Shown here piece by piece: positions 19,252-30,288 of a stretch of 64,000 nucleotides of DNA. A model generated the notes under the pieces. The model saw nothing but the letters and a program-made list of their open reading frames with translations. It made no database searches and was not told the origin of the DNA. Location: assembly GCA_000004985.1 (NCBI GenBank), contig GG738905.1. One strand, written 5' to 3'. The position numbers were made by a program, and so were the translations under genes. Source of the DNA: Naegleria gruberi (taxonomy: Eukaryota). Position 1 is the stretch's first letter. Each line of letters begins with the position of its first letter.

Positions 19252-22125
19252 TTAGTTGGTTTCTTCGTCATCTTCAATAATGTGTGGGTTGACAAAACCA
19301 GTTCTTCCTTCAATGTTAACATCTGCTTGTTCTTCTTCTTCATCTTCTTCTTCTCCCTTAATTTTAGCAACTGGATCTTGTTGAGGACCAGCAATTAAAA
19401 GTAAAGAAGGCAAGAATAATAAACCATGAAGAGCTCCAGAAACTACAATAGACAAATACATTCTAAAGTAATAAATTCTGAAAAGTTCAGAGTGGGAGAA
19501 GGCAAGGACAATTACACCAATAAATTTGGTGAAGGTAATACCAGAAAGGACAGATGAGCCCATTTCAATCATGGCCTTCTTTACTCTGTCTTTATGGGTT
19601 CCTCTAGCTTTCATAAATGCTCTAGTAATATGTACACAAAATTCAACACTTATACCAATTGACATTACCAAGTTGACAACAGATAAAGCATTTACATAAA
19701 TACCCCAAACTGCCATAATTCCCAACAAATTAGTCAAAATCATGGAAATACAAATCAAAACATAGATTGAGGCAACTGGAGAGCCTAGTAAAATTAAAGT
19801 AGTAAGGAAAACTGCACCACTAGCAATCATAATGTTCATTGCTGAAATTTCTGGTAAATAGAGATATTGGGCGAAATAAATATAATAAATACTATAAGGA
19901 TAGGTTTCAAGTGGACCAAAACCGCTGGTTGGACTATACTTTTGTGGATTGGAAAGATAAGTGGAAGTAAAGTATGATGACTTCATACTATTGATAAAAT
20001 CTTCCTGTGTTACCAATGTCTTGGTTTGTGTCATTAATCTTGCTGCATCAATAGATTTTCCATCAGCAGAGAATTTCACATCTTGCTTAAATTGGAAGCC
20101 ACAAAGTGGGACAACTTGGAAATTAATTTTACAGCATTCTTCTTGTTGAAGGAATTCCTTTAGCCATTCTACATAGTGTTCAGGAGGTACGTGGCTTGCA
20201 GAAACGTTCTTGTGTGAGCATTCATTACTCAAAACCCACTTTTTGAAATCTGTGTAGAAGAAAAGAATACTTCCTCTATCCAAATACTCGGTTTCTGCAA
20301 CAATATTCATCATTCTACTCATTTGATCTTGAACTGCATGTGAAGTATAATCCAAATTCTTTGTAACATAATAAACAGGAGGTCCTAAATCAACATATTC
20401 TCTTTGTTTTAAAAAGTATTCACCAAGATATGATCCAGTTGGTAAGGCAGTAATTTGATCAAGACCTTGGCTCAAAAACATGGAAGCATAAATAGAGGCA
20501 CCACATAGACCAAGGAAAACAATTAGAATGAAAAAGCTCACAGGAAGGAATGTCACAATTGGTGCAATAATCTTTTTCATGATAAATCTGGCTCCTCCTG
20601 CAATACTGATCCAATCTCTAGTGAAGTACTTGTTAGTAATAACGACAGTAGGTTCCAATTCCAATCTATTAGAAAGTCTTCTTCTCAAATCCAAAGATAA
20701 TAAAGCAGAGAAACATGTAACCTGAAGAACAAAGTTTGCAATAATTGCAACACCTGAAAAGATACAAAAGGCTTGTACGGCAGGCATTTTGGTCAAACTA
20801 CCAAGCATGAAAGCCAAAAATTCAGAAATTGAGGCAAGGGTCATTGAAGAACCGACAGTAGCCATTGTTTCAGCAATAGCCTCAGCAACTGTTAACTTGG
20901 AGCCCTTTCTTTTAACAACTTGATCAAGATGGTTAGCCATAATAAACATGTTATCTACACCAATAGCAAGAATAAGGAAAGGCATGACCTCCATAATAAT
21001 TAATGTGGCTGGTACACCTGCCAGACAACAAATACCAGCTGAAATAACAATTGACATTACCACAATAATCACACCAGCAAGACCCATGATAATTCTGGAT
21101 TTGATTGGGTGAATTTGACCTAGTGAAATGGCAACATAAACAAACATTACAGCATAACTTATGAGAACTGTAGAAATATCTCCACTGGTTTCATCAGCCA
21201 ATTCATCTTGTACAGATCTTTCAGCAGACACATAAATGGTGGAATAAGTACGAGGTTTTTGAGCAACTTTCAAAAATTCCTTTTCCCATAATAAAGCTCT
21301 TTCAGCTGTCACATTATCATTATTGAGAAGTATTGTGACAATAAGTGCCTGTGCTGTGGCATATGATGTTGTTGCATTGTAGGATACTTTACCAAACATT
21401 TGCTTATCATAAAGAGGAATACCAATATCTGATAAACAAATTGGGGATAAACTAATTCTTTGACTAAAATCCTTGTTAATAAACAATACTTTGAATAATT
21501 AAAACATACGTGCACAAGTATACGTGATTGACGAGTTGGTTTTTTCCAGTTTCGAAAGTGTTGTAATTCATTTGATAAAATTGAAGTGGTGATTGAATCA
21601 TGCATCCCTTAGATGGAATAGGCTTGTAGCATAAATCATCAAGTGTAATAGGTGCTGTTGAACAATTTCCATCATAAATTTTAATACTGTCAATTTCTCT
21701 TTGAATTTGAAATAATTCTTCCATCATGTCCACATTGATTGCATTCGTAATTGAAGTGTTTTTAGGGAAAATAATCATTTGTTCAATTCTAAAGAATGGT
21801 GAGAATTGGTCATCGAAATAGTTCTTTTGTTTCACAGTATCACTGTCAGGTGGAACCTATCAAAAAAAACACATTAATATCATATGATGATTTTAAATCC
21901 ACTTACCCAAAGACCTTGAGGATCAGTGATTAATTGAATGTTTTTAATTCCCACACCAATTCCGGCAGTAAAAATCACTGCAATCACAATAAATAATATA
22001 GGAACTGTAGCAGTAGCATATCCAATATAATAAAAGATGGTACGGAAAATCTTATCCAAATAATATGATGGTAATGATAAATAATAGGATAAACCCTTCT
22101 GATTGTTGTTATTATTGCTATACAT
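19252..22125 (-). CDS. Patched/NPC1/Dispatched-family RND transporter with sterol-sensing domain, 3 exons, about 935 aa
   Basis: Exons are 21907..22125 (MYSNNNNN...ITDPQGLW), 21510..21856 and 19252..21463. Introns are 21857..21906 (50 nt, GTAAGT..GATAG) and 21464..21509 (46 nt, GTATGT..TTTTAG, with TTAAC upstream). Sterol-sensing-domain motif VMPFLILAIGVDNMFIMANH, 12 predicted TM helices and two large loops. There is no cysteine-rich luminal N-terminal domain before TM1. Confidence 0.75.
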
Positions 22126-22600: not shown

Positions 22601-23705
22601 ATGGCAAATAAAACTGTAGTTAAGAGATCCGTACCTGCACAATTACGGAGAGTCAAGTACTTGTTGTCTAATCACAAATCATTAATGGATCGCTTTAAAA
22701 CAGAGTTGACTAATCACAACTTCCTTCACATAAAAACAAAAAAAATGTCTAGAGCTTTCTCTCGTTTTGATTCTATCAAATTCACTGTTGTTAGAGGTGA
22801 AAAACTAATGGTTGGTGATTCGAATGGACTTAGTGACCCATACGTTTTAATTATTGATCAATCAACAAAGCAAACTCTTCACAAAACGGTTGTCGATAGA
22901 AAAACTTTAAATCCAAGATGGAATTCAACATTTTGGAAACGTTACACTGAAGAAACACCAAAGAATCTCAAGTTAAAGATTGAAGTTTATGATTGGGATG
23001 ATGACAAGGATGATGTAAGTTATTATGATATATCTTCTTGGTCAATTAAACAACATATAGGATTTCCTTGGTTGGTTTGAAATTGAACTTGATCCAAACG
23101 TATTGAATCCAGATCAAACATATGAATCTTCACATCAATTAGAAGATGCTACAACTGGTAAAGTTTGGATCAATTACAAATGGGATACATCAGAAAGAAA
23201 GCCAAGTGCCAAGACATCAAGTACAGGAATTGGGTCAGATGGTTTCAAGGTCATTACAGAATTGAATTCAAGTTGTTTCATTCCTAAAGTTCCAAGCTCT
23301 TTTGTTCTTATTGGAACAGATGTTGATTCATTGAATCAAGATTACACAGTCACTTGTGTTGATTCCACAAATGGTAATACTCTCCTCTTTACCTTTACAA
23401 AACTCAAATCCAAAACATTTGAGAAGGCAAAGGAAGATCACTTATTCATCATGTTAAAGAGTTTGAAAGATAAATATCCAAACTTGAAGGCATTGAAGAG
23501 TGATGTTGCTGGATCCACATTTGGAGGAAAGGTCAACTCTTCAACCAAGAGTGTTTATGATGCTGGTAATAAGACAGTTATAACATCAATTTGTGCCAAT
23601 TTCAAGAACAAGGCATTCATCAATTTGGCTTTAATTTCAAAAGGAGAAGATTTGGCTGCCATGTTAGACGATGTAATGATCAAGACAACTTTGTTAGCTC
23701 TTTAA
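22601..23705 (+). CDS. C2-domain protein, 2 exons, about 353 aa
   Basis: Exons are 22601..23014 and 23061..23705, with a 46-nt intron (GTAAGT..ATATAG) at 23015..23060. C2 signature: GLSDPYVLIIDQ...LNPRWNSTF...KLKIEVYDWDDDKDD|DFLGWFEIEL. Confidence 0.6.
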
Positions 23706-23807: not shown

Positions 23808-26501
23808 TTAAATAAACAATACGGATAAAATAGAAATGATTATTACATCTAAACTAAGGATGGCCATGAATGATGAATTAATTACAGAACCTCCACCAAC
23901 TACTTTCTTACTTTGGCTAGTGATTGGACAATTAGATGCCATTATTTGGTAGGATCCATAATAATCCAATCCTATTTCAATACCATTTGTTGTCTTTGAT
24001 ATCTTTGAAATTCCACCATTTCCAACAGTACTTCCAATAGAGTAGACCTTTGAATTAATACTCACACATGATGCACTTGAAATCTGTTGAAGAACTACAG
24101 TTCCCTTTGATTTTGGAGGAACTTCAACAGTAATAGAAAAGAGGTTATTAGAATTGGACCAATACACTGATAACTTTCCGTTTGGAGTTTGTACTGCTCC
24201 TTTAGCCCATGTTAATGAACCAGTTTGAGGTTTTACAACCCATTCAGAGTAACCAGTACTAGTAGGTCTGATTCCTAGAACGTATTTTGAAAGCAATGGA
24301 GAAACGCCACCACTCCAAGCATGAGCAAAACTGTTTGAGGCGCTTTGAGTGGCTCCAATTTCAATACTTTCCCAAAAAGCATTGGTAAAGTAAGGTCCCT
24401 CAACAGTCATTGGTGTCCAAACTGAATTAATAATATCAAATGCATGATCTTCTCTATTTGATTCAAATGCTGCTGCTGCATGGAAGTAAGAAATGTATGG
24501 AGAGGTAAAAGATGCTCCAGCATTCTTGAATGTTAAATAATTAGAGCCAGACTTCAATTGATCTTTCATAGTATCCAGTAATGTGCTGGAAAAGTTCTTT
24601 CCTCTCAAAGATGCAATGCCTGATAATATTGCGAATGCATTGGTATCCTGAGCTATGCCAGACTTTTGATCTGAAATAATGTAAGTACCCGAGTTTGTAT
24701 CAAACAACTTTTCATTAACTAGTTGTTTTGTAGAGTTAGCTCTTATTAAGTACGTTTCAGCCAAATTTGTTTCTCCAACTGCTTTTGCCAAAACTGAAGC
24801 AGATTCCATTGCCATAGCATATTGAATATTTAGTTTTGTAAATCTTCCCAAAAGCATTCCTAAACTTGGATAAAAGTCATAGGTCCAATTTGGATTAACA
24901 CCTTGCAACAAACCATCACTACCTTTAAGAGAATCGAAAGCATTAATGAGTAATTTCAATCTTGTCCATTGTTCCTTAACAAAAGATAAATCGCCAGAAT
25001 ATAGATAGTATTCCTCAATAGCTGATAACGAAGCTAAAAAGTATGTATAACTGTAAAATATTGGTGTTACAAAATCGTCAGATGGATCAATGGTTTGATA
25101 AGGGAAACCAGTACCAATTCTAGAAGAAACAAATCCACTTTTCAATTGATAGGATGTGCATATTCCAAGAGTTCCACTTGCATATTCATTAGCATAATAA
25201 GAATAGTATAATAATGGGCCTGCTACGAGTAAGTCACCACTCCAAACATTACGATCTCTCTTAGCACCATCCAGAATTACAGCTACAGGGTTGGTTCCAA
25301 CTCCAAAATCATGAGCTGATTGTTTTGATGTGAGAGGATCTTGATGAAGAATGCTACCACTGACATCAACTACTTTAAGATTCTTAATAAATGCACTTTG
25401 ATACTTTTTAGCAGAAAATCCAACTCCACCTGGAACAACTGATGGGATGTATGGATTAGTGGACTGAGGAAGATTAATATCAAATATCAAGGCACCATCT
25501 ATATAAACCTTAAATACAAGTTGATTAACAGAAGCAAATACATCATACCATTGATTTTCAACCAAGTTAGGAAGCGAAGTATTGTAATACAAGGTTTCAT
25601 AAGGGTAAAGCTCTTGTGCACTTATTACTTGAATCATATTTGGATTATGAGAACTATTTAGGCTATTTAAGGTGACTCTTGTTTCAGAATAGTCGTTTGA
25701 TCTAATAGCAAAAGAAATACCATTCTTCATAAATAGAGTAGAGAAGGATACATTATAATTAATCCATGACATTCCCTTTAAAAAGACACCTGCAGTACCT
25801 GGTGAAATATAAAGACCTTGATCAGTGCTAATAAACCCAGGTTGAACAGTTCTTGGTGGGACCATGTTCAATTGTAAAGTTCTTACCCCCATATTCCACA
25901 TCTTGTTGTAAACCTCATTAGAACAAGAGAAAGCACCATTAGATTGAGAAGGATCTCTGGTATAGATAGCTGATGTGAATGAAACAGAAGAGATGGTAAT
26001 AGAAGCTCCAACAGTAAGTAATTCAATTCTCTGATAACGTTGAGCTCCTTGGATACCATTTGTATCAAAATGGCCAGCTATTTCAATGGTATGGATATTT
26101 ACTCTGTCCAAATCAAAGGCACGAATCATTGGATTGAACAACATGTCGCCATCCTTAATATTTGGAAGACTTTCAGAATAGGATACTCTAATTTCTATTG
26201 GACTTTGAGAAATGGATGCAATGTCAAACATTGGAAAACCAGCAACATTTTGTCCATAATCCAAAACAATGGAAGCAAGATTACCAGACATGTCATTATT
26301 GAGAGTAAATGGAAACATTCCATCAGCACCTGCAACAGTAACACTACCATTCACAGATAAAACAGATTTTGGTTTTTGGACAAGTGGCAAATCAGCAATA
26401 CTGCTGTCACCATTCACAAACATTTCATTGAGGTTAACCCACAACGCAACCAAAACGCTTAATACCAAGCATAAAACAGCTCTACTAGTTGTAGTTGTCA
26501 T
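23808..26501 (-). CDS. secreted (alpha/alpha)6-barrel glycoside hydrolase, alpha-L-rhamnosidase (GH78)-like, 897 aa, intronless
   Basis: Signal peptide MTTTTSRAVLCLVLSVLVALWVNL. The motif KRDRNVWSGD resembles the GH78 catalytic-domain R(D/E)RxGWxGD box. Size and composition fit bacterial or fungal rhamnosidases. The family is not certain (GH78 versus a related six-hairpin glycosidase). Confidence 0.5.
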   Translation of the reverse strand: MTTTTSRAVLCLVLSVLVALWVNLNEMFVNGDSSIADLPLVQKPKSVLSVNGSVTVAGADGMFPFTLNNDMSGNLASIVLDYGQNVAGFPMFDIASISQSPIEIRVSYSESLPNIKDGDMLFNPMIRAFDLDRVNIHTIEIAGHFDTNGIQGAQRYQRIELLTVGASITISSVSFTSAIYTRDPSQSNGAFSCSNEVYNKMWNMGVRTLQLNMVPPRTVQPGFISTDQGLYISPGTAGVFLKGMSWINYNVSFSTLFMKNGISFAIRSNDYSETRVTLNSLNSSHNPNMIQVISAQELYPYETLYYNTSLPNLVENQWYDVFASVNQLVFKVYIDGALIFDINLPQSTNPYIPSVVPGGVGFSAKKYQSAFIKNLKVVDVSGSILHQDPLTSKQSAHDFGVGTNPVAVILDGAKRDRNVWSGDLLVAGPLLYYSYYANEYASGTLGICTSYQLKSGFVSSRIGTGFPYQTIDPSDDFVTPIFYSYTYFLASLSAIEEYYLYSGDLSFVKEQWTRLKLLINAFDSLKGSDGLLQGVNPNWTYDFYPSLGMLLGRFTKLNIQYAMAMESASVLAKAVGETNLAETYLIRANSTKQLVNEKLFDTNSGTYIISDQKSGIAQDTNAFAILSGIASLRGKNFSSTLLDTMKDQLKSGSNYLTFKNAGASFTSPYISYFHAAAAFESNREDHAFDIINSVWTPMTVEGPYFTNAFWESIEIGATQSASNSFAHAWSGGVSPLLSKYVLGIRPTSTGYSEWVVKPQTGSLTWAKGAVQTPNGKLSVYWSNSNNLFSITVEVPPKSKGTVVLQQISSASCVSINSKVYSIGSTVGNGGISKISKTTNGIEIGLDYYGSYQIMASNCPITSQSKKVVGGGSVINSSFMAILSLDVIIISILSVLFI

Positions 26502-26754
26502 GTTTTTTTCTAATTGATTTTCTCAACATTTCAGAAGAACTTATTCACTTAAATACTCGCCACTCTGCTTGAGCAAAACTTGCTTGGTTTTGTGCGTTGG
26601 AATACTAAAACCAAGTTCCATCTTCCCTGCGCTGAGTAGAAGGAAACTCAGCTTGGAGCGATATAGTTGATTGAATCAGAAATGTAACAAAATATTAGAT
26701 GCAAAAGGGATATGTTTTGATGCAAGGAAGTACAACACATGATTGAAATAAAAC

Positions 26755-28288
26755 ATGACAGATTCAAAAGAGTTCCACCCGATTGCTTGTAATTTTTGTA
26801 GACATCTACATAAACAATGGTAAGAATTTGATAATTATTATTTAAATTATTTAAATATGATGAAAAATTATTATAGTGGTAAGTTGTTGAAAGGAAACAT
26901 TTTTTAATAATAATTATGAAATAATAGGAAAACAATTACCGACATGTTCCAGATGTGCAACAAAAGGTATTACATGTGAATATAAAACACCAAAGAAGAG
27001 AAAGATTGCTTCGATATCATCAGCATCGGAATTGCCTGCAAAAGCAGTTTCAAAAGAAGTTGTGGAAAATAAGGATGTACCAGCTGATACAACAATTGTT
27101 TCTAGGTATTCAAAGCAATTTACAAAGAAACAAATAATTGATTTGTATTATGTGATGATTTGTGATCATTATATTATTGTTGAAAAAGAATTGTTGGAGA
27201 AGTACATCTTGAATGAGGAAATAACAGATCAGCAACCCTTAAAGAAGGAAATGAATGCCTTCTTTCATTCTATTCAAGCATTGTTGGAACAGAGATTTGG
27301 TTTTTGCGAAATTGCAGAAAAATCAGCCAAGAAATCAAGAGATTTACTATCAAAGATTTTTGATCAAGTTTCAAACTATTATGTTGCTTGCTGCTATTCA
27401 TCTCTTGGAATTTATGAAATAGGAACAGGAAGAGGAAAACTTGCAAAATTCTATATCAAAACAGCTAAATTTTACTTTGATGGGATTGAATTGGAAAAAC
27501 TTAATAATTCTGAACGTTTACTGCTCGAACTTATATCAGTAATGGAACTAATGATTGAGGATGATTTAGGCACGAACAAAATTCTAAAAGATTTCCCAAG
27601 TTACTTTTACATGGCAACCAGTACATCAGTTCCTCAACAATTTCTAGAAAAGATTCCACAACAAGTTGACTTATCAAATTTGGAGACGTATTTGGAAGTT
27701 ATTTGTCAAAGTCTCAAAGAATTTTTCATTTCTAAAGCAAAATCAACCAGATCACAATTTGACCTTATTTGGTATAGTGCTGGTTCTAATTATTATTTTG
27801 AAATAGTTCATTATGGACTGAAATTATTGTTTCTTATTCAAAATTGTCCAGAATATAGATCAGAAATTGAGCAAACTGCTTGTAAAATAACATTACTTTC
27901 AGATAGTGAATATTTTCCATTTACTACATTTGCTGCTATTCCTTATTTTACAATGGCTAGTAGAGTCCATGTACAAGTGGCCAAGGAAATTGAAAAGGGA
28001 TTGAGAAGCAATCTGTCTTATGATATTTATTCAATGATTACAAAGGATTACCGATCTCTGCATGTATTGAAATCACGTTATAAAAGAGTGAATGTTGTGG
28101 CTGGAAGTGTGATATTGGAAATGGAGGAAATATTGAAAAAAAGAGATATTGAACCAATCACCCAAGCAGAACACAACAGTGTATATTCTCCCCTTACTAA
28201 TTTCTTAGATATGTTGTTCAATCCAGACGATTCATTCAGCACTTCTATGATTTCCAGTTTAATGGACCCTTCACAAGATAAGATTTAA
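26755..28288 (+). CDS. Zn(II)2Cys6 binuclear-cluster transcription factor (candidate), 3 exons including a putative 2-nt micro-exon
   Basis: Exon 1 (26755..26819) encodes MTDSKEFHPIACNFCRHLHKQ plus TG. The downstream exon (26928..28288) encodes KQLPTCSRCATKGITCEYK.... Joining them through the 2 nt at 26882..26883 (flanked by TATAG| and |GTAAGT) gives C-x2-C-x6-C-x6-C-x2-C-x6-C exactly. A single-intron join instead gives W at the third Cys position. The C-terminal 400 aa has no family recognised. Confidence 0.5.
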
Positions 28289-29226: not shown

Positions 29227-30288
29227 ATGAGTAGTACTCTTGATTTACAAACAACTAATACCACATCAACAATGCCACACAGTTACTCGGAATCTGAGAT
29301 TCAAAACTTGGGTGATGATGTTTCTATTGATAGTGAAGAATTCAATAATACCGTAGTTGCTATGGACCAATTAACACTTGGTTCCACACCACTAGACGGT
29401 CTTACTGATAAGCAATTGGAAATATTGAAGAAGTTTACCCAAATGTTTGAAGATGACCGTTCCAAACTGACCCAACTTCAACAATATTATTGTTTCCATG
29501 ATAGATTCTGTTTTGTCAGATATTTGAAAGCCAGAGATTGGGACATTCCAAATGCTACTAAATTATTGAAGAGTTCTCTTACTTGGATTGAATCCTCATA
29601 CAAGCCATTTAGTTTAACTGCTAAACAATTATGGTTAGAAGCATCACCTGCCAAGACTTATATCAAGGGTCATGATAAGGCTGGTCGTCCAATTATTTAT
29701 CTTCATGCCGGTAGAGATTTCACAAATGATCCTGCTACTGGTGTTAGTTTACTTGTTTATAATTTGATTGCTGCCAGTTATAGAATGGGTCCAAATGGTT
29801 CTCAAATGACTTGGATTTGTGATTTCAGTTCCTACACAACAAAGTCTGCTCCTCCATTGGCAGTTTGTAAACAAGCTGTTGAAATTTTATCTTCACACTT
29901 CCCTGAAAGACTTGGTTTGTGTTTGATGGTCTTTGCTCCTAAGGTTTTCTATTGGTTCTTCAAATTAATTTCTCCTCTCATTCCACCTGTCACTAAGCAA
30001 AAGATTCAATTCTGTAAGGGCACCAAACAAAAGGATATGAGAGCATTCTTTGAACCATTTGTGGATATGTCTCAACTTGAAAAGAAATATGGAGGTGATC
30101 AAGATTTCACATACAATCATAAGGAAATGTGGGCTCACGAAATTGAACATGATTTGAAGAGATTGCACAAAATTAAGGAAGCTGGTGGTATGAAACCAGA
30201 AGAAGCTGATGCTTTAATTAATGAACCAATTATTGACACTTTGGAAAAGCACAACAAGTTTTTCAAAGCCAGACATGCTTCCAAATAA
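29227..30288 (+). CDS. Sec14/CRAL-TRIO lipid-transfer protein (353 aa)
   Basis: CRAL-TRIO N-terminal helix region (FLKARDWDIPNATKLL). Lipid-binding core HDKAGRPIIYLHAGRDF...WICDFSSYT...HFPERLGLCLMVFAPKVFYWFFKLISPLI...KIQF. Intronless. Confidence 0.75.
   Translation: MSSTLDLQTTNTTSTMPHSYSESEIQNLGDDVSIDSEEFNNTVVAMDQLTLGSTPLDGLTDKQLEILKKFTQMFEDDRSKLTQLQQYYCFHDRFCFVRYLKARDWDIPNATKLLKSSLTWIESSYKPFSLTAKQLWLEASPAKTYIKGHDKAGRPIIYLHAGRDFTNDPATGVSLLVYNLIAASYRMGPNGSQMTWICDFSSYTTKSAPPLAVCKQAVEILSSHFPERLGLCLMVFAPKVFYWFFKLISPLIPPVTKQKIQFCKGTKQKDMRAFFEPFVDMSQLEKKYGGDQDFTYNHKEMWAHEIEHDLKRLHKIKEAGGMKPEEADALINEPIIDTLEKHNKFFKARHASK

What the first reader, a model, noticed from the sequence alone, without database searches (positions are those of the whole stretch)
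23808..28288. Divergent pair: intronless GH78-like secreted glycosidase and a Zn2Cys6 transcription factor share a 253-bp promoter
The 897-aa GH78-like gene (minus) and the Zn2Cys6 factor (plus) start 253 bp apart (26502..26754). In filamentous fungi, rhamnose-utilisation regulators (RhaR-like Zn2Cys6 factors) control alpha-L-rhamnosidases, so this could be a small co-regulated sugar-utilisation module. The glycosidase has no introns in a genome where most genes have them, and it has a bacterial-type catalytic-domain motif (RDRNVWSGD). Horizontal acquisition is therefore possible.
Basis: inference. Interest (0 to 1): 0.5.

Follow-up and report, generated by a model that had tools for sequence, protein, structure and literature searches.

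The report
Amoeba rhamnosidase gene with linked regulator
This is a gene pair in the amoeba Naegleria gruberi, not a fungus: a rhamnose-cleaving enzyme gene next to a zinc-cluster DNA-binding protein gene, kept adjacent in three related amoebae, and there is no sign that the enzyme gene came recently from bacteria.

Summary
An uninterrupted 897-aa GH78-family ORF lies at 23808-26501 (-). A Zn2Cys6 gene starts at 26755 (+), 253 bp away.

Most of the interpretation does not hold:
- The window is Naegleria gruberi (Heterolobosea), not a filamentous fungus.
- The factor is not an RhaR relative. Its only detectable homologues are in Willaertia magna and in one uncultured relative.
- The motif DGAKRDRNVWSGD is the GH78 catalytic motif. 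Aspergillus enzymes and at least 584 bacterial genomes share it.
- Long uninterrupted ORFs are common in this window, and the gene's codon usage is typical.
- The enzyme's nearest relatives are eukaryotic: Willaertia 56%, bdelloid rotifers 48-51%, Protostelium 36%. These form a clade in 200/200 neighbour-joining bootstraps. The clade's sister group is fungal, not bacterial, in 194/200.
- A recent bacterial transfer is therefore not supported. An old transfer, or transfers between eukaryotes, remains likely.

New points:
- GH78 and the factor are neighbours in three heterolobosean lineages, in three different arrangements, while flanking genes differ. This supports a functional module.
- No shared promoter motif was found.
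- Reading the zinc cluster requires a 2-nt microexon. The reference annotation misses it.

The parts
23808..26501 (-). Intronless CDS of an 897-aa GH78-family alpha-L-rhamnosidase-like protein (NCBI 'predicted protein', Naegleria gruberi). The stop codon is at 23808-23810.
   Evidence: AlphaFold model: pLDDT 87, pTM 0.87. The best Foldseek PDB matches are all GH78.
26430..26501 (-). N-terminal signal-peptide-like segment MTTTTSRAVLCLVLSVLVALWVNL (aa 1-24).
   Evidence: Read from the sequence. Low-confidence N-terminal helix in the model. Homologues in Willaertia and rotifers have similar N-termini. No predictor was run, so this is inference.
25845..26375 (-). N-terminal beta-sandwich domain (aa 43-219).
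   Evidence: Aligns to aa 16-189 of A. niger rhamnosidase 8iwd. Modelled as beta strands.
25332..25835 (-). Beta-sandwich insertion of about 170 aa, ConA/lectin-like (aa ~223-390). It is absent from the 640-aa Aspergillus enzymes.
   Evidence: Weak Laminin_G_3 hit, below cut-off. Bacterial homologues carry a weak PF06439 hit at the same place. All-beta in the model. There is a gap here in the alignments to 8iwd and 8hmm.
24279..25295 (-). (alpha/alpha)6 catalytic domain (aa 403-741).
   Evidence: Pfam Bac_rhamnosid6H. PDB sequence matches. Foldseek matches.
25233..25271 (-). Catalytic motif DGAKRDRNVWSGD (aa 411-423). D416 aligns with the general acid Asp335 of BtRha78A, and D423 with Asp342.
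   Evidence: Residue roles come from PMC11901676. D411, G412, R415, R417 and D423 are invariant and D416 is nearly invariant across 23 homologues.
24369..24371 (-). Codon of E711 in the FWE motif. It aligns with the general base Glu595 of BtRha78A. H727 and W729 follow.
24081..24275 (-). C-terminal beta-sandwich domain (aa 743-807).
   Evidence: Pfam Bac_rhamnosid_C, 53.9 bits.
23811..23870 (-). C-terminal hydrophobic tail FMAILSLDVIIISILSVLFI, preceded by GGGS. It looks like a GPI-anchor signal or a C-terminal membrane anchor.
   Evidence: The tail is shared with the Willaertia, rotifer and P0013 homologues. It is absent from the bacterial, fungal and Protostelium sequences shown. No predictor was run, so this is inference.
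26502..26754 (.). 253-bp spacer between the two start codons (35% G+C). It contains no CGG or CCG triplet.
   Evidence: Its two short hairpins are not significant and Rfam finds nothing.
26755..26819 (+). Exon 1 of the Zn2Cys6 gene (MTDSKEFHPIACNFCRHLHKQ plus TG). It is missing from the reference model XP_002671401.1.
   Evidence: It is conserved with Willaertia (FHPIACVNCRKLHKRC) and with the uncultured lineage (CLRCRKLHKRC).
26820..26876 (+). Intron 1 (57 nt, GTAAGA...TATAG).
   Evidence: Inferred from frame and homology.
26877..26878 (+). Inferred 2-nt microexon TG. It completes Cys22 (TG|T) and starts Gly23 (G|GA).
   Evidence: It is the only splice path found that keeps the frame and the six-cysteine spacing. 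The spliced product aligns without a gap to the intronless Willaertia orthologue. No RNA evidence.
26879..26927 (+). Intron 2 (49 nt, GTAAGT...AATAG). The reference gene model uses it as well.
26928..28288 (+). Last exon of the Zn2Cys6 gene. The 475-aa model has its zinc cluster at aa 12-39 (nt 26788-26977) and a PKKRK nuclear-localisation-like motif at nt 26990-27004.
29227..30288 (+). CRAL/TRIO (Sec14-like) gene. It is the third member of the block shared with Willaertia.
   Evidence: Pfam. 37% identity to the Willaertia neighbour. tblastx.

Best explanation
The locus belongs to Naegleria gruberi.

Enzyme. The minus-strand gene encodes a catalytically intact GH78-family glycosidase, most probably an inverting exo-alpha-L-rhamnosidase. 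Its general acid is an Asp (D416) and its general base a Glu (E711). It has a signal peptide, a lectin-like beta-sandwich insertion and a C-terminal hydrophobic anchor. It would therefore act on the cell surface or in the phagosome and lysosome lumen. There it would trim terminal rhamnose from bacterial or plant glycans that the amoeba ingests.

Regulator. The plus-strand gene encodes a Gal4-type Zn2Cys6 DNA-binding protein with a PKKRK nuclear-localisation-like motif. Its first three cysteines lie in an unannotated upstream exon. That exon is joined through a 2-nt microexon.

Linkage. The pair was already linked before Naegleria and Willaertia diverged. It has stayed adjacent through rearrangements. 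The factor is therefore probably the dedicated regulator of the glycosidase.

Origin. The enzyme belongs to a eukaryote-only clade: Heterolobosea, bdelloid rotifers, an unidentified eukaryote and Protostelium. This clade sits inside a subfamily shared by bacteria and fungi. Its presence in these eukaryotes reflects an old transfer, or transfers between eukaryotes. It does not reflect a recent bacterial acquisition by N. gruberi.

Shown: gene structures, family membership, conserved catalytic residues, conserved linkage, clade membership. Inferred: substrate, localisation, the regulatory link, the microexon.
For: Organism:
- The ORF is 100% identical to an N. gruberi protein.

GH78 membership:
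- Two Pfam domains pass their cut-offs.
- phmmer finds A. niger and A. oryzae rhamnosidases and BtRha78A at E 6e-30 to 2e-27.
- The AlphaFold model has pLDDT 87. Its eleven best PDB rows are all GH78, with target TM 0.80-0.83 to 8hmm and 8iwd.
- D416, D423, E711, H727 and W729 align with BtRha78A Asp335, Asp342, Glu595, His620 and Trp622. They are invariant or nearly so in 23 homologues.

Zn2Cys6:
- Pfam Zn_clus scores 33.1 bits on the spliced model.
- The spliced model aligns without a gap to the intronless Willaertia cluster.

Linkage:
- Willaertia locus L001 has Zn_clus(-), CRAL_TRIO(+), GH78(+). The Naegleria factor matches that Zn_clus gene at E 4e-48 over aa 6-441.
- Only these three genes are shared between the 64-kb window and the 22.6-kb Willaertia locus.
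- In the uncultured lineage L087 the GH78 is 59% identical and sister to Naegleria. A homologue of the factor, with a zinc cluster, starts 115 bp downstream of it on the same strand.

Origin:
- Exhaustive phmmer gives Willaertia, P0013 and Protostelium as the best representatives.
- The protist-rotifer clade has 100% support and 200/200.
- Its sister group is fungal in 194/200 bootstraps and contains bacteria in 4/200.
- Codon usage and GC3 are typical of the window.
- The Willaertia and Adineta genes are also intronless.
Against: - There are no expression, binding or enzyme data.
- The 253-bp spacer has no CGG or CCG half-sites. The GH78 upstream regions of the three lineages share no k-mers beyond shuffled expectation.
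- In Willaertia a CRAL_TRIO gene sits between the factor and GH78, so the shared bidirectional promoter is not itself conserved.
- Part of the conserved adjacency could be residual synteny. The second Willaertia copy is only another haplotype or homeologue.
- The microexon has no RNA support.
- The trees are neighbour-joining with a simple distance correction. The fungal sister position could be long-branch attraction: pairwise identity to bacteria (up to 34%) exceeds that to fungi (up to 30%), and indels are ambiguous.
- The model of the factor's C-terminal part was too poor to classify.
Confidence: 0.55

Rival explanations
1. The two genes are neighbours only by descent. The GH78, Zn2Cys6 and CRAL_TRIO block is a leftover of ancestral gene order in a compact genome, and the factor regulates something else.
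For: - Head-to-head ORF pairs 47-511 bp apart are common in the window.
- No conserved cis-motif and no CGG triplets were found.
- The relative orientation differs in every lineage, and a third gene intervenes in Willaertia.
- No rhamnose catabolic genes lie nearby.
Against: - The adjacency survives in three lineages whose factor proteins are only 23-34% identical.
- Flanking genes are not shared, and the block has been rearranged internally.
- The factor family was found nowhere else among 5.8 billion proteins.
Confidence: 0.35
2. One reading: the glycosidase is a recent horizontal acquisition from bacteria, shown by its lack of introns and a bacterial-type motif.
For: - The Pfam families are named 'bacterial'.
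- At least 584 bacterial genomes carry the motif.
- The highest non-eukaryotic pairwise identities, 31-34%, are to bacteria.
- Distribution among eukaryotes is patchy.
Against: - Orthologues in conserved linkage exist in Willaertia and a third heterolobosean.
- The nearest relatives are eukaryotic at 36-59% identity and share signal peptides. All but Protostelium also share the C-terminal anchor.
- The clade has 200/200 support and a bacteria-containing sister group in only 4/200.
- Codon usage is typical.
- The motif is also in Aspergillus GH78 enzymes.
- Long intronless ORFs are the rule in this window.
Confidence: 0.03
3. The gene is an ancient eukaryotic gene, inherited vertically and lost in most lineages. 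No transfer is involved.
For: - In the neighbour-joining trees the protist-rotifer clade has a fungal sister group.
- Homologues occur in both Ascomycota and Basidiomycota.
Against: - Distribution is extremely patchy: some Heterolobosea, one amoebozoan and bdelloid rotifers, but no other animals.
- Rotifer sequences are 48-51% identical to amoeba sequences but much less similar to fungal ones, which does not follow species phylogeny.
- The Adineta gene lies near a chromosome end and is intronless. By my recollection, that is typical of foreign genes in bdelloids.
Confidence: 0.12
4. The reference annotation is right. The factor starts at ATG 26861 (459 aa) and has no functional zinc cluster, and the upstream exon is non-coding or a relic.
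For: - NCBI/JGI model XP_002671401.1.
- A 2-nt exon is very unusual.
Against: - The reference product keeps only cysteines 4-6, which is half a cluster.
- The upstream exon is conserved with Willaertia (FHPIAC..CR.LHK.C) and with the uncultured lineage.
- It opens with an ATG just after an in-frame stop.
- Both inferred introns have GTAAG...AG boundaries.
- The spliced product matches the intronless orthologue with no gap.
Confidence: 0.1
5. The enzyme has the GH78 fold but a different specificity, or it is a non-catalytic lectin-like surface protein.
For: - It is only about 20-30% identical to characterised enzymes.
- It carries an extra lectin-like insertion and a membrane anchor.
Against: - The acid, the base and the His/Trp residues aligned to the BtRha78A pocket are all conserved.
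- From my knowledge of CAZy, every activity described for GH78 is cleavage of an alpha-L-rhamnoside.
Confidence: 0.15

Closest known systems
Aspergillus GH78 alpha-L-rhamnosidases AoRhaA (PDB 8HMM) and A. niger N12-Rha / Rha-2 (8IWD, 8IWF)
   Same: - Best sequence and structure matches among solved structures: E 6e-30 and 4.5e-29, target TM 0.80-0.83.
- Same DGAKRDRxVWxGD acid motif and the same order of N-terminal beta-sandwich, (alpha/alpha)6 domain and C-terminal beta-sandwich.
   Different: - About 20% identity in the Foldseek structural alignments.
- The Naegleria protein has an extra lectin-like beta-sandwich of about 170 aa (aa ~223-390), a C-terminal extension and a hydrophobic anchor.
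- The base region reads FWE rather than FIE.
BtRha78A (BT1001, PDB 3CIH) of Bacteroides thetaiotaomicron
   Same: It uses an Asp as general acid (Asp335) and a Glu as general base (Glu595). Both align with D416 and E711, as do Asp342, His620 and Trp622.
   Different: It is a bacterial, periplasmic or surface enzyme of a polysaccharide-utilisation system, with a different N-terminal region and no eukaryotic targeting signals.
Bdelloid rotifer 'alpha-L-rhamnosidase-like' genes (Philodina roseola B3G4P2, Adineta vaga, A. ricciae, Rotaria)
   Same: - 48-51% identity over about 90% of the length.
- Same domain order, signal peptide, conserved C-terminal Cys and hydrophobic tail, and no introns.
- Same strongly supported clade.
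   Different: - No Zn2Cys6 neighbour.
- The host is an animal in which such genes are regarded as foreign (my recollection of Gladyshev et al. 2008, not checked here).
RhaR, the Zn2Cys6 rhamnose regulator of Aspergillus, and its rhamnosidase regulon
   Same: A Zn2Cys6 protein associated with GH78 genes. It is the conceptual model for a sugar-responsive regulator and its target.
   Different: - There is no detectable homology outside the 40-aa zinc cluster. No fungal protein was recovered.
- No Fungal_trans domain was found.
- There are no CGG sites in the spacer and no L-rhamnose catabolic genes nearby.
- The organism is a heterolobosean.
Fungal catabolic or biosynthetic gene clusters with an embedded pathway-specific Zn2Cys6 factor (Gal4-type)
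   Same: A regulator gene is physically linked to its presumed target, and the linkage persists through rearrangement in three lineages.
   Different: The unit here has only two, perhaps three, genes. It lies outside fungi, and the regulatory link is not demonstrated.

Membership tests
Glycoside hydrolase family 78 (alpha-L-rhamnosidase) | Significant sequence similarity to the GH78 catalytic module (Pfam Bac_rhamnosid6H) and to the C-terminal domain (Bac_rhamnosid_C). | tested here: met
   50.9 bits (cut-off 24.5) and 53.9 bits (cut-off 22.1). phmmer against PDB GH78 chains gives E 6e-30 to 8e-5.
Glycoside hydrolase family 78 (alpha-L-rhamnosidase) | (alpha/alpha)6 barrel flanked by beta-sandwich domains. 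| tested here: met
   AlphaFold model with pLDDT 87 and pTM 0.87. The eleven best Foldseek PDB rows are GH78 structures, probability 1.00.
Glycoside hydrolase family 78 (alpha-L-rhamnosidase) | Catalytic general acid (Asp or Glu in the RD/ER motif) and general base (Glu) are present. | tested here: met
   D416 and E711 align with Asp335 and Glu595 of BtRha78A. They are conserved in 23 homologues.
Glycoside hydrolase family 78 (alpha-L-rhamnosidase) | Hydrolysis of alpha-L-rhamnosides with inversion of configuration. | not testable with these tools
   This needs an enzyme assay.
Zn2Cys6 (Gal4-type) binuclear-cluster DNA-binding proteins | Six cysteines spaced CX2CX6CX5-12CX2CX6-8C, with Pfam Zn_clus above its cut-off. 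| tested here: met
   CNFCRHLHKQCGKQLPTCSRCATKGITC scores 33.1 bits against a cut-off of 21 and covers profile positions 2-39 of 39. This holds only with the microexon splice, which the intronless Willaertia orthologue supports.
Zn2Cys6 (Gal4-type) binuclear-cluster DNA-binding proteins | Fungal-type middle homology region (Pfam Fungal_trans or Fungal_trans_2), as found in many fungal members. | tested here: not met
   No Pfam hit up to E = 1 other than Zn_clus. The structure model was too poor (pLDDT 48.6) to test the fold. This domain is common in the family but does not define it.
Zn2Cys6 (Gal4-type) binuclear-cluster DNA-binding proteins | Sequence-specific DNA binding, classically to CGG triplets. 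| tested here: inconclusive
   The 253-bp spacer has no CGG or CCG. No conserved motif is shared across the three lineages. Binding itself cannot be tested here.
RhaR orthologue (Aspergillus L-rhamnose regulator) | Full-length homology to fungal RhaR proteins. | tested here: not met
   Searches with the protein and with a two-sequence profile recovered only Naegleria and Willaertia proteins. No direct comparison with an RhaR sequence was run.
Recent bacterium-to-eukaryote horizontal transfer | The gene is nested within a bacterial clade and absent from related eukaryotes. | tested here: not met
   Orthologues are present in Willaertia and an uncultured relative. The eukaryote-only clade has 200/200 support, and a bacteria-containing sister group appears in 4/200.
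Recent bacterium-to-eukaryote horizontal transfer | Atypical composition or codon usage relative to the host genome. | tested here: not met
   GC3 is 0.235, and the codon-usage distance of 0.159 lies within the window's range of 0.138-0.324.
Ancient transfer or transfer between eukaryotes | Patchy distribution that conflicts with organismal phylogeny. | tested here: met
   Heterolobosea, bdelloid rotifers, an unidentified eukaryote and Protostelium form one clade. Donor and direction are unresolved.

The most novel reading that the evidence does not exclude
Heterolobosean amoebae carry a dedicated, co-inherited regulator-target pair: a lineage-specific Gal4-type Zn2Cys6 factor and a membrane-anchored GH78 rhamnosidase. 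This would be a fungal-style pathway-specific regulatory cluster outside fungi. The same anchored enzyme gene was passed between eukaryotes, from a protist lineage to bdelloid rotifers or the reverse, rather than coming straight from bacteria. In addition, the factor's mRNA would need a 2-nt microexon, one of the shortest exons proposed for any protist.
Probability: 0.3. Interest if true: 0.55.

Novelty: new member of a known kind. Interest (0 to 1): 0.4.

Why it matters
- It corrects three things: the organism, the gene model of NAEGRDRAFT_73457, and the origin story of the enzyme.
- If the regulatory link holds, it gives a simple, testable transcription factor and target pair in Naegleria, an organism with almost no characterised gene regulation.
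- It would also show that Zn2Cys6 factors act as linked pathway regulators outside fungi.
- The close relation to the bdelloid rotifer 'foreign' rhamnosidase genes points to protists as a donor, or as fellow recipients, for part of the rotifers' acquired gene set.
- None of this overturns current understanding. It is a modest addition.

Tried and rejected
- Small RNA or structured element in the spacer: two perfect hairpins (26583-26615 and 26631-26652) were seen. Folding z-scores are -0.8 and -1.1, and there is no Rfam match even at E<=1. Rejected.
- Conserved cis-elements: no k-mers are shared beyond shuffled expectation between the Naegleria spacer and the Willaertia promoters, or among three GH78 upstream regions. 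There are no CGG/CCG sites.
- Larger sugar-utilisation cluster: the neighbours are NPC1-like, C2, CRAL_TRIO, an amino-acid transporter, GST and MatE genes. Rejected.
- Single-intron splice alternatives for the factor: every in-frame acceptor gives TGA (worked out by hand from the sequence). Rejected in favour of the microexon.
- Fold of the factor's C-terminal region: the AlphaFold model from two sequences had pLDDT 48.6. It was unusable, so no fold search was run.
- Zn2Cys6 neighbour at the rotifer and P0013 loci: none found.
- Shared indels to decide between a fungal and a bacterial sister group: ambiguous.
- The look-up of encoding contigs for the Naegleria protein itself: not on record.
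- Literature: no paper in the library links Naegleria with rhamnosidase or with Zn2Cys6. I could not retrieve a citable figure for N. gruberi intron density.

Full report
**Observation**

The window has about 32% G+C. At 23808-26501 on the minus strand it carries an uninterrupted 897-codon ORF.
- Pfam places the product in the GH78 rhamnosidase family. Bac_rhamnosid6H covers aa 403-741 and Bac_rhamnosid_C covers aa 743-807, both above their curated cut-offs.
- On the plus strand an ATG at 26755 follows an in-frame TAA.
- It opens a short exon encoding MTDSKEFHPIACNFCRHLHKQ. The 418-codon ORF 27032-28288 lies downstream.

**Organism**

The 897-aa product is 100% identical to a 'predicted protein' of Naegleria gruberi. 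The locus therefore belongs to a heterolobosean amoeboflagellate, not a filamentous fungus. This removes the basis for the RhaR analogy as stated.

**The glycosidase**

Solved structures:
- The closest by sequence are A. niger N12-Rha (8IWD/8IWF), A. oryzae AoRhaA (8HMM) and Bacteroides BtRha78A (3CIH).
- An AlphaFold model built on 23 homologues is confident, with pLDDT 87 and pTM 0.87.
- Its eleven best Foldseek PDB rows are all GH78 rhamnosidases. Target TM-scores to the two Aspergillus enzymes are 0.80-0.83.

Catalytic residues:
- D423, H727 and W729 fall on pocket residues Asp342, His620 and Trp622.
- These residues are invariant or nearly invariant across 23 diverse homologues.
It occurs in Aspergillus enzymes and in at least 584 bacterial genomes.

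Differences from the 640-aa Aspergillus enzymes:
- an all-beta insertion of about 170 aa at aa ~223-390;
- a signal-peptide-like N-terminus;
- a C-terminal hydrophobic tail preceded by small residues.

I read these last two as secretory entry plus a GPI or membrane anchor. That is inference by eye.

**Origin of the glycosidase**

The word-indexed search gave these identities:

| Relative | Identity to the Naegleria protein |
|---|---|
| metagenome protein P0002 | 59% |
| Willaertia magna | 56% |
| bdelloid rotifers | 48-51% |
| actinobacterial-type proteins | 30-34% |
| Ascomycota | 25-28% |

- An exhaustive phmmer scan of 1.84 billion representatives found 4690 relatives. Its top three were the Willaertia cluster, an unidentified eukaryote (P0013) and Protostelium nocturnum at 36% identity.
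- A scan of one genome per prokaryotic species found hundreds of bacterial homologues in Burkholderia, Paenibacillus, Actinomycetota, Chloroflexia and others. None exceeds 34% identity.
- Neighbour-joining trees gave 100% bootstrap support for Naegleria plus P0002, for that pair plus Willaertia, for Heterolobosea plus rotifers plus P0013, and for all of these plus Protostelium.
- With 119 sequences and named fungi from both Ascomycota and Basidiomycota, the protist-rotifer clade was monophyletic in 200/200 replicates. Its sister group was fungal in 194/200 and contained bacteria in 4/200.
- I treat the fungal sister position with caution. The method is simple, the branches are long, pairwise identity is higher to bacteria, and shared indels are ambiguous.
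- The GH78 gene's GC3 and codon usage are ordinary for the window.
- The Willaertia and Adineta orthologues are also intronless.
- Many ORFs of 300-1385 codons run uninterrupted in this window. By my recollection of Fritz-Laylin et al. 2010, only about 36% of N. gruberi genes have introns. I could not retrieve that paper here.

A recent bacterial acquisition by N. gruberi is therefore not supported. An old transfer into eukaryotes and spread among eukaryotes, rotifers included, fits the patchy distribution best. All clade members except Protostelium also share a eukaryotic-style anchor.

**The transcription factor**

- The upstream exon ends with TG. The downstream frame begins GGA AAA CAA.
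- The only path I found that keeps the frame removes 26820-26876 (GTAAGA...TATAG) and 26879-26927 (GTAAGT...AATAG). This leaves the dinucleotide TG (26877-26878) as an exon.
- The product carries CX2CX6CX6CX2CX6C and matches Pfam Zn_clus over the whole profile, at 33.1 bits against a cut-off of 21.
- The Willaertia orthologue has the cluster in one exon: FHPIACVNCRKLHKRCNKTLPSCSGCIQRGIQCEYRTPK. It aligns to the spliced Naegleria sequence with no gap across the junction.
- The reference model XP_002671401.1 (NAEGRDRAFT_73457, 459 aa) starts at an ATG inside my intron 1. It uses the second intron and lacks cysteines 1-3.
- I conclude that the reference model is truncated. The microexon remains an inference until RNA data are checked.
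- The rest of the protein has no Pfam domain.
- It has no homologues other than Willaertia's among 5.8 billion proteins.
- It is therefore not an RhaR orthologue.
- A PKKRK motif follows the cluster.

**Is the pairing meaningful?**

The 253-bp head-to-head arrangement alone is not evidence, because such pairs are common in this window. The comparative evidence is stronger.

| Lineage | Arrangement |
|---|---|
| N. gruberi | head-to-head, 253 bp apart |
| Willaertia | orthologous Zn_clus(-), CRAL_TRIO(+), GH78(+); the second copy is a haplotype or homeologue |
| Uncultured lineage (L087, 40% G+C) | a homologue of the factor, with a zinc cluster split by its own intron, starts 115 bp downstream of GH78 on the same strand |

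- tblastx shows that only these three genes are shared between the window and the Willaertia locus.
- The GH78 of the uncultured lineage is sister to Naegleria's.
- Three lineages, three arrangements and unshared flanks suggest that the adjacency is retained for a reason. That is the pattern expected for a regulator and its target.

Against this:
- I found no shared promoter words and no CGG half-sites.
- There are no rhamnose catabolic genes nearby.
- The rotifer and P0013 loci have no such factor.

I put the regulatory link at roughly 0.4-0.5.

**Verdict**

The family assignments and the module idea stand. The fungal framing, the RhaR analogy, the 'bacterial motif', the intron argument and recent bacterial transfer do not.
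- Both proteins are new members of known kinds.
- The conserved linkage, the kinship between amoeba and rotifer genes, and the probable 2-nt microexon are modestly interesting and testable.

Noticed in passing
window 26820-26927: Two canonical short introns (57 and 49 nt) are separated by a 2-nt exon (TG, 26877-26878). The reference model XP_002671401.1 starts at ATG 26861 inside the first intron, so it lacks half the zinc cluster.
   Followed up: partly
L001 19129-19815 (Willaertia magna JBEGDK010000027.1): A second, truncated copy of the Zn2Cys6 gene lies about 6.5 kb beyond the GH78 gene. Its first ~230 aa are nearly identical to the full copy, and it then diverges into unrelated sequence. 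It is probably a partial duplication or a disrupted gene.
   Followed up: partly
L087 4262-5140 (ENA ERZ27315067 k141_1785084): In the uncultured relative, the zinc cluster of the factor is interrupted by a 42-nt GTAAGT...CAG intron between Cys3 and Cys4. The position is a few codons away from the Naegleria introns. This region of the gene seems prone to intron gain or sliding.
   Followed up: no
L085 10001-12655 (Adineta vaga CP075495.1, 15.83 of 16.27 Mb): The rotifer orthologue is intronless and lies about 0.4 Mb from the end of a 16-Mb chromosome. About 8 kb without called genes lies upstream of it.
   Followed up: no
L002 6406-8202 (JGI 3300061463): P0013 is a 47.5% G+C homologue with a GPI-like tail. 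It comes from an unidentified eukaryote, sits beside split protein-kinase fragments, and branches with the rotifer and heterolobosean sequences.
   Followed up: no
window 26583-26615 and 26631-26652: The shared spacer has two perfect short inverted repeats, with 9-nt and 7-nt arms. Folding energy is not better than shuffles and Rfam finds nothing.
   Followed up: yes
window 22601-23080 and 23103-23705: Two same-strand ORFs lie just downstream of the GH78 gene, separated by 22 nt: a C2 domain (159 aa) and a 200-aa ORF with no Pfam hit. They may be exons of one gene.
   Followed up: no
window 63604-63675: A tRNA-Glu (anticodon TTC) is the only Rfam or ARAGORN hit in the window.
   Followed up: yes
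protein searches: No protein named as N. fowleri or N. lovaniensis appeared among the GH78 homologues listed. The library searched carries no names. The gene may have been lost in that branch of the genus, or those proteomes may not have been sampled.
   Followed up: no
window 19252-21486: A 744-aa ORF carries sterol-sensing, Patched and NPC1 domains (Niemann-Pick C1-like). It is probably part of a larger gene with introns.
   Followed up: no
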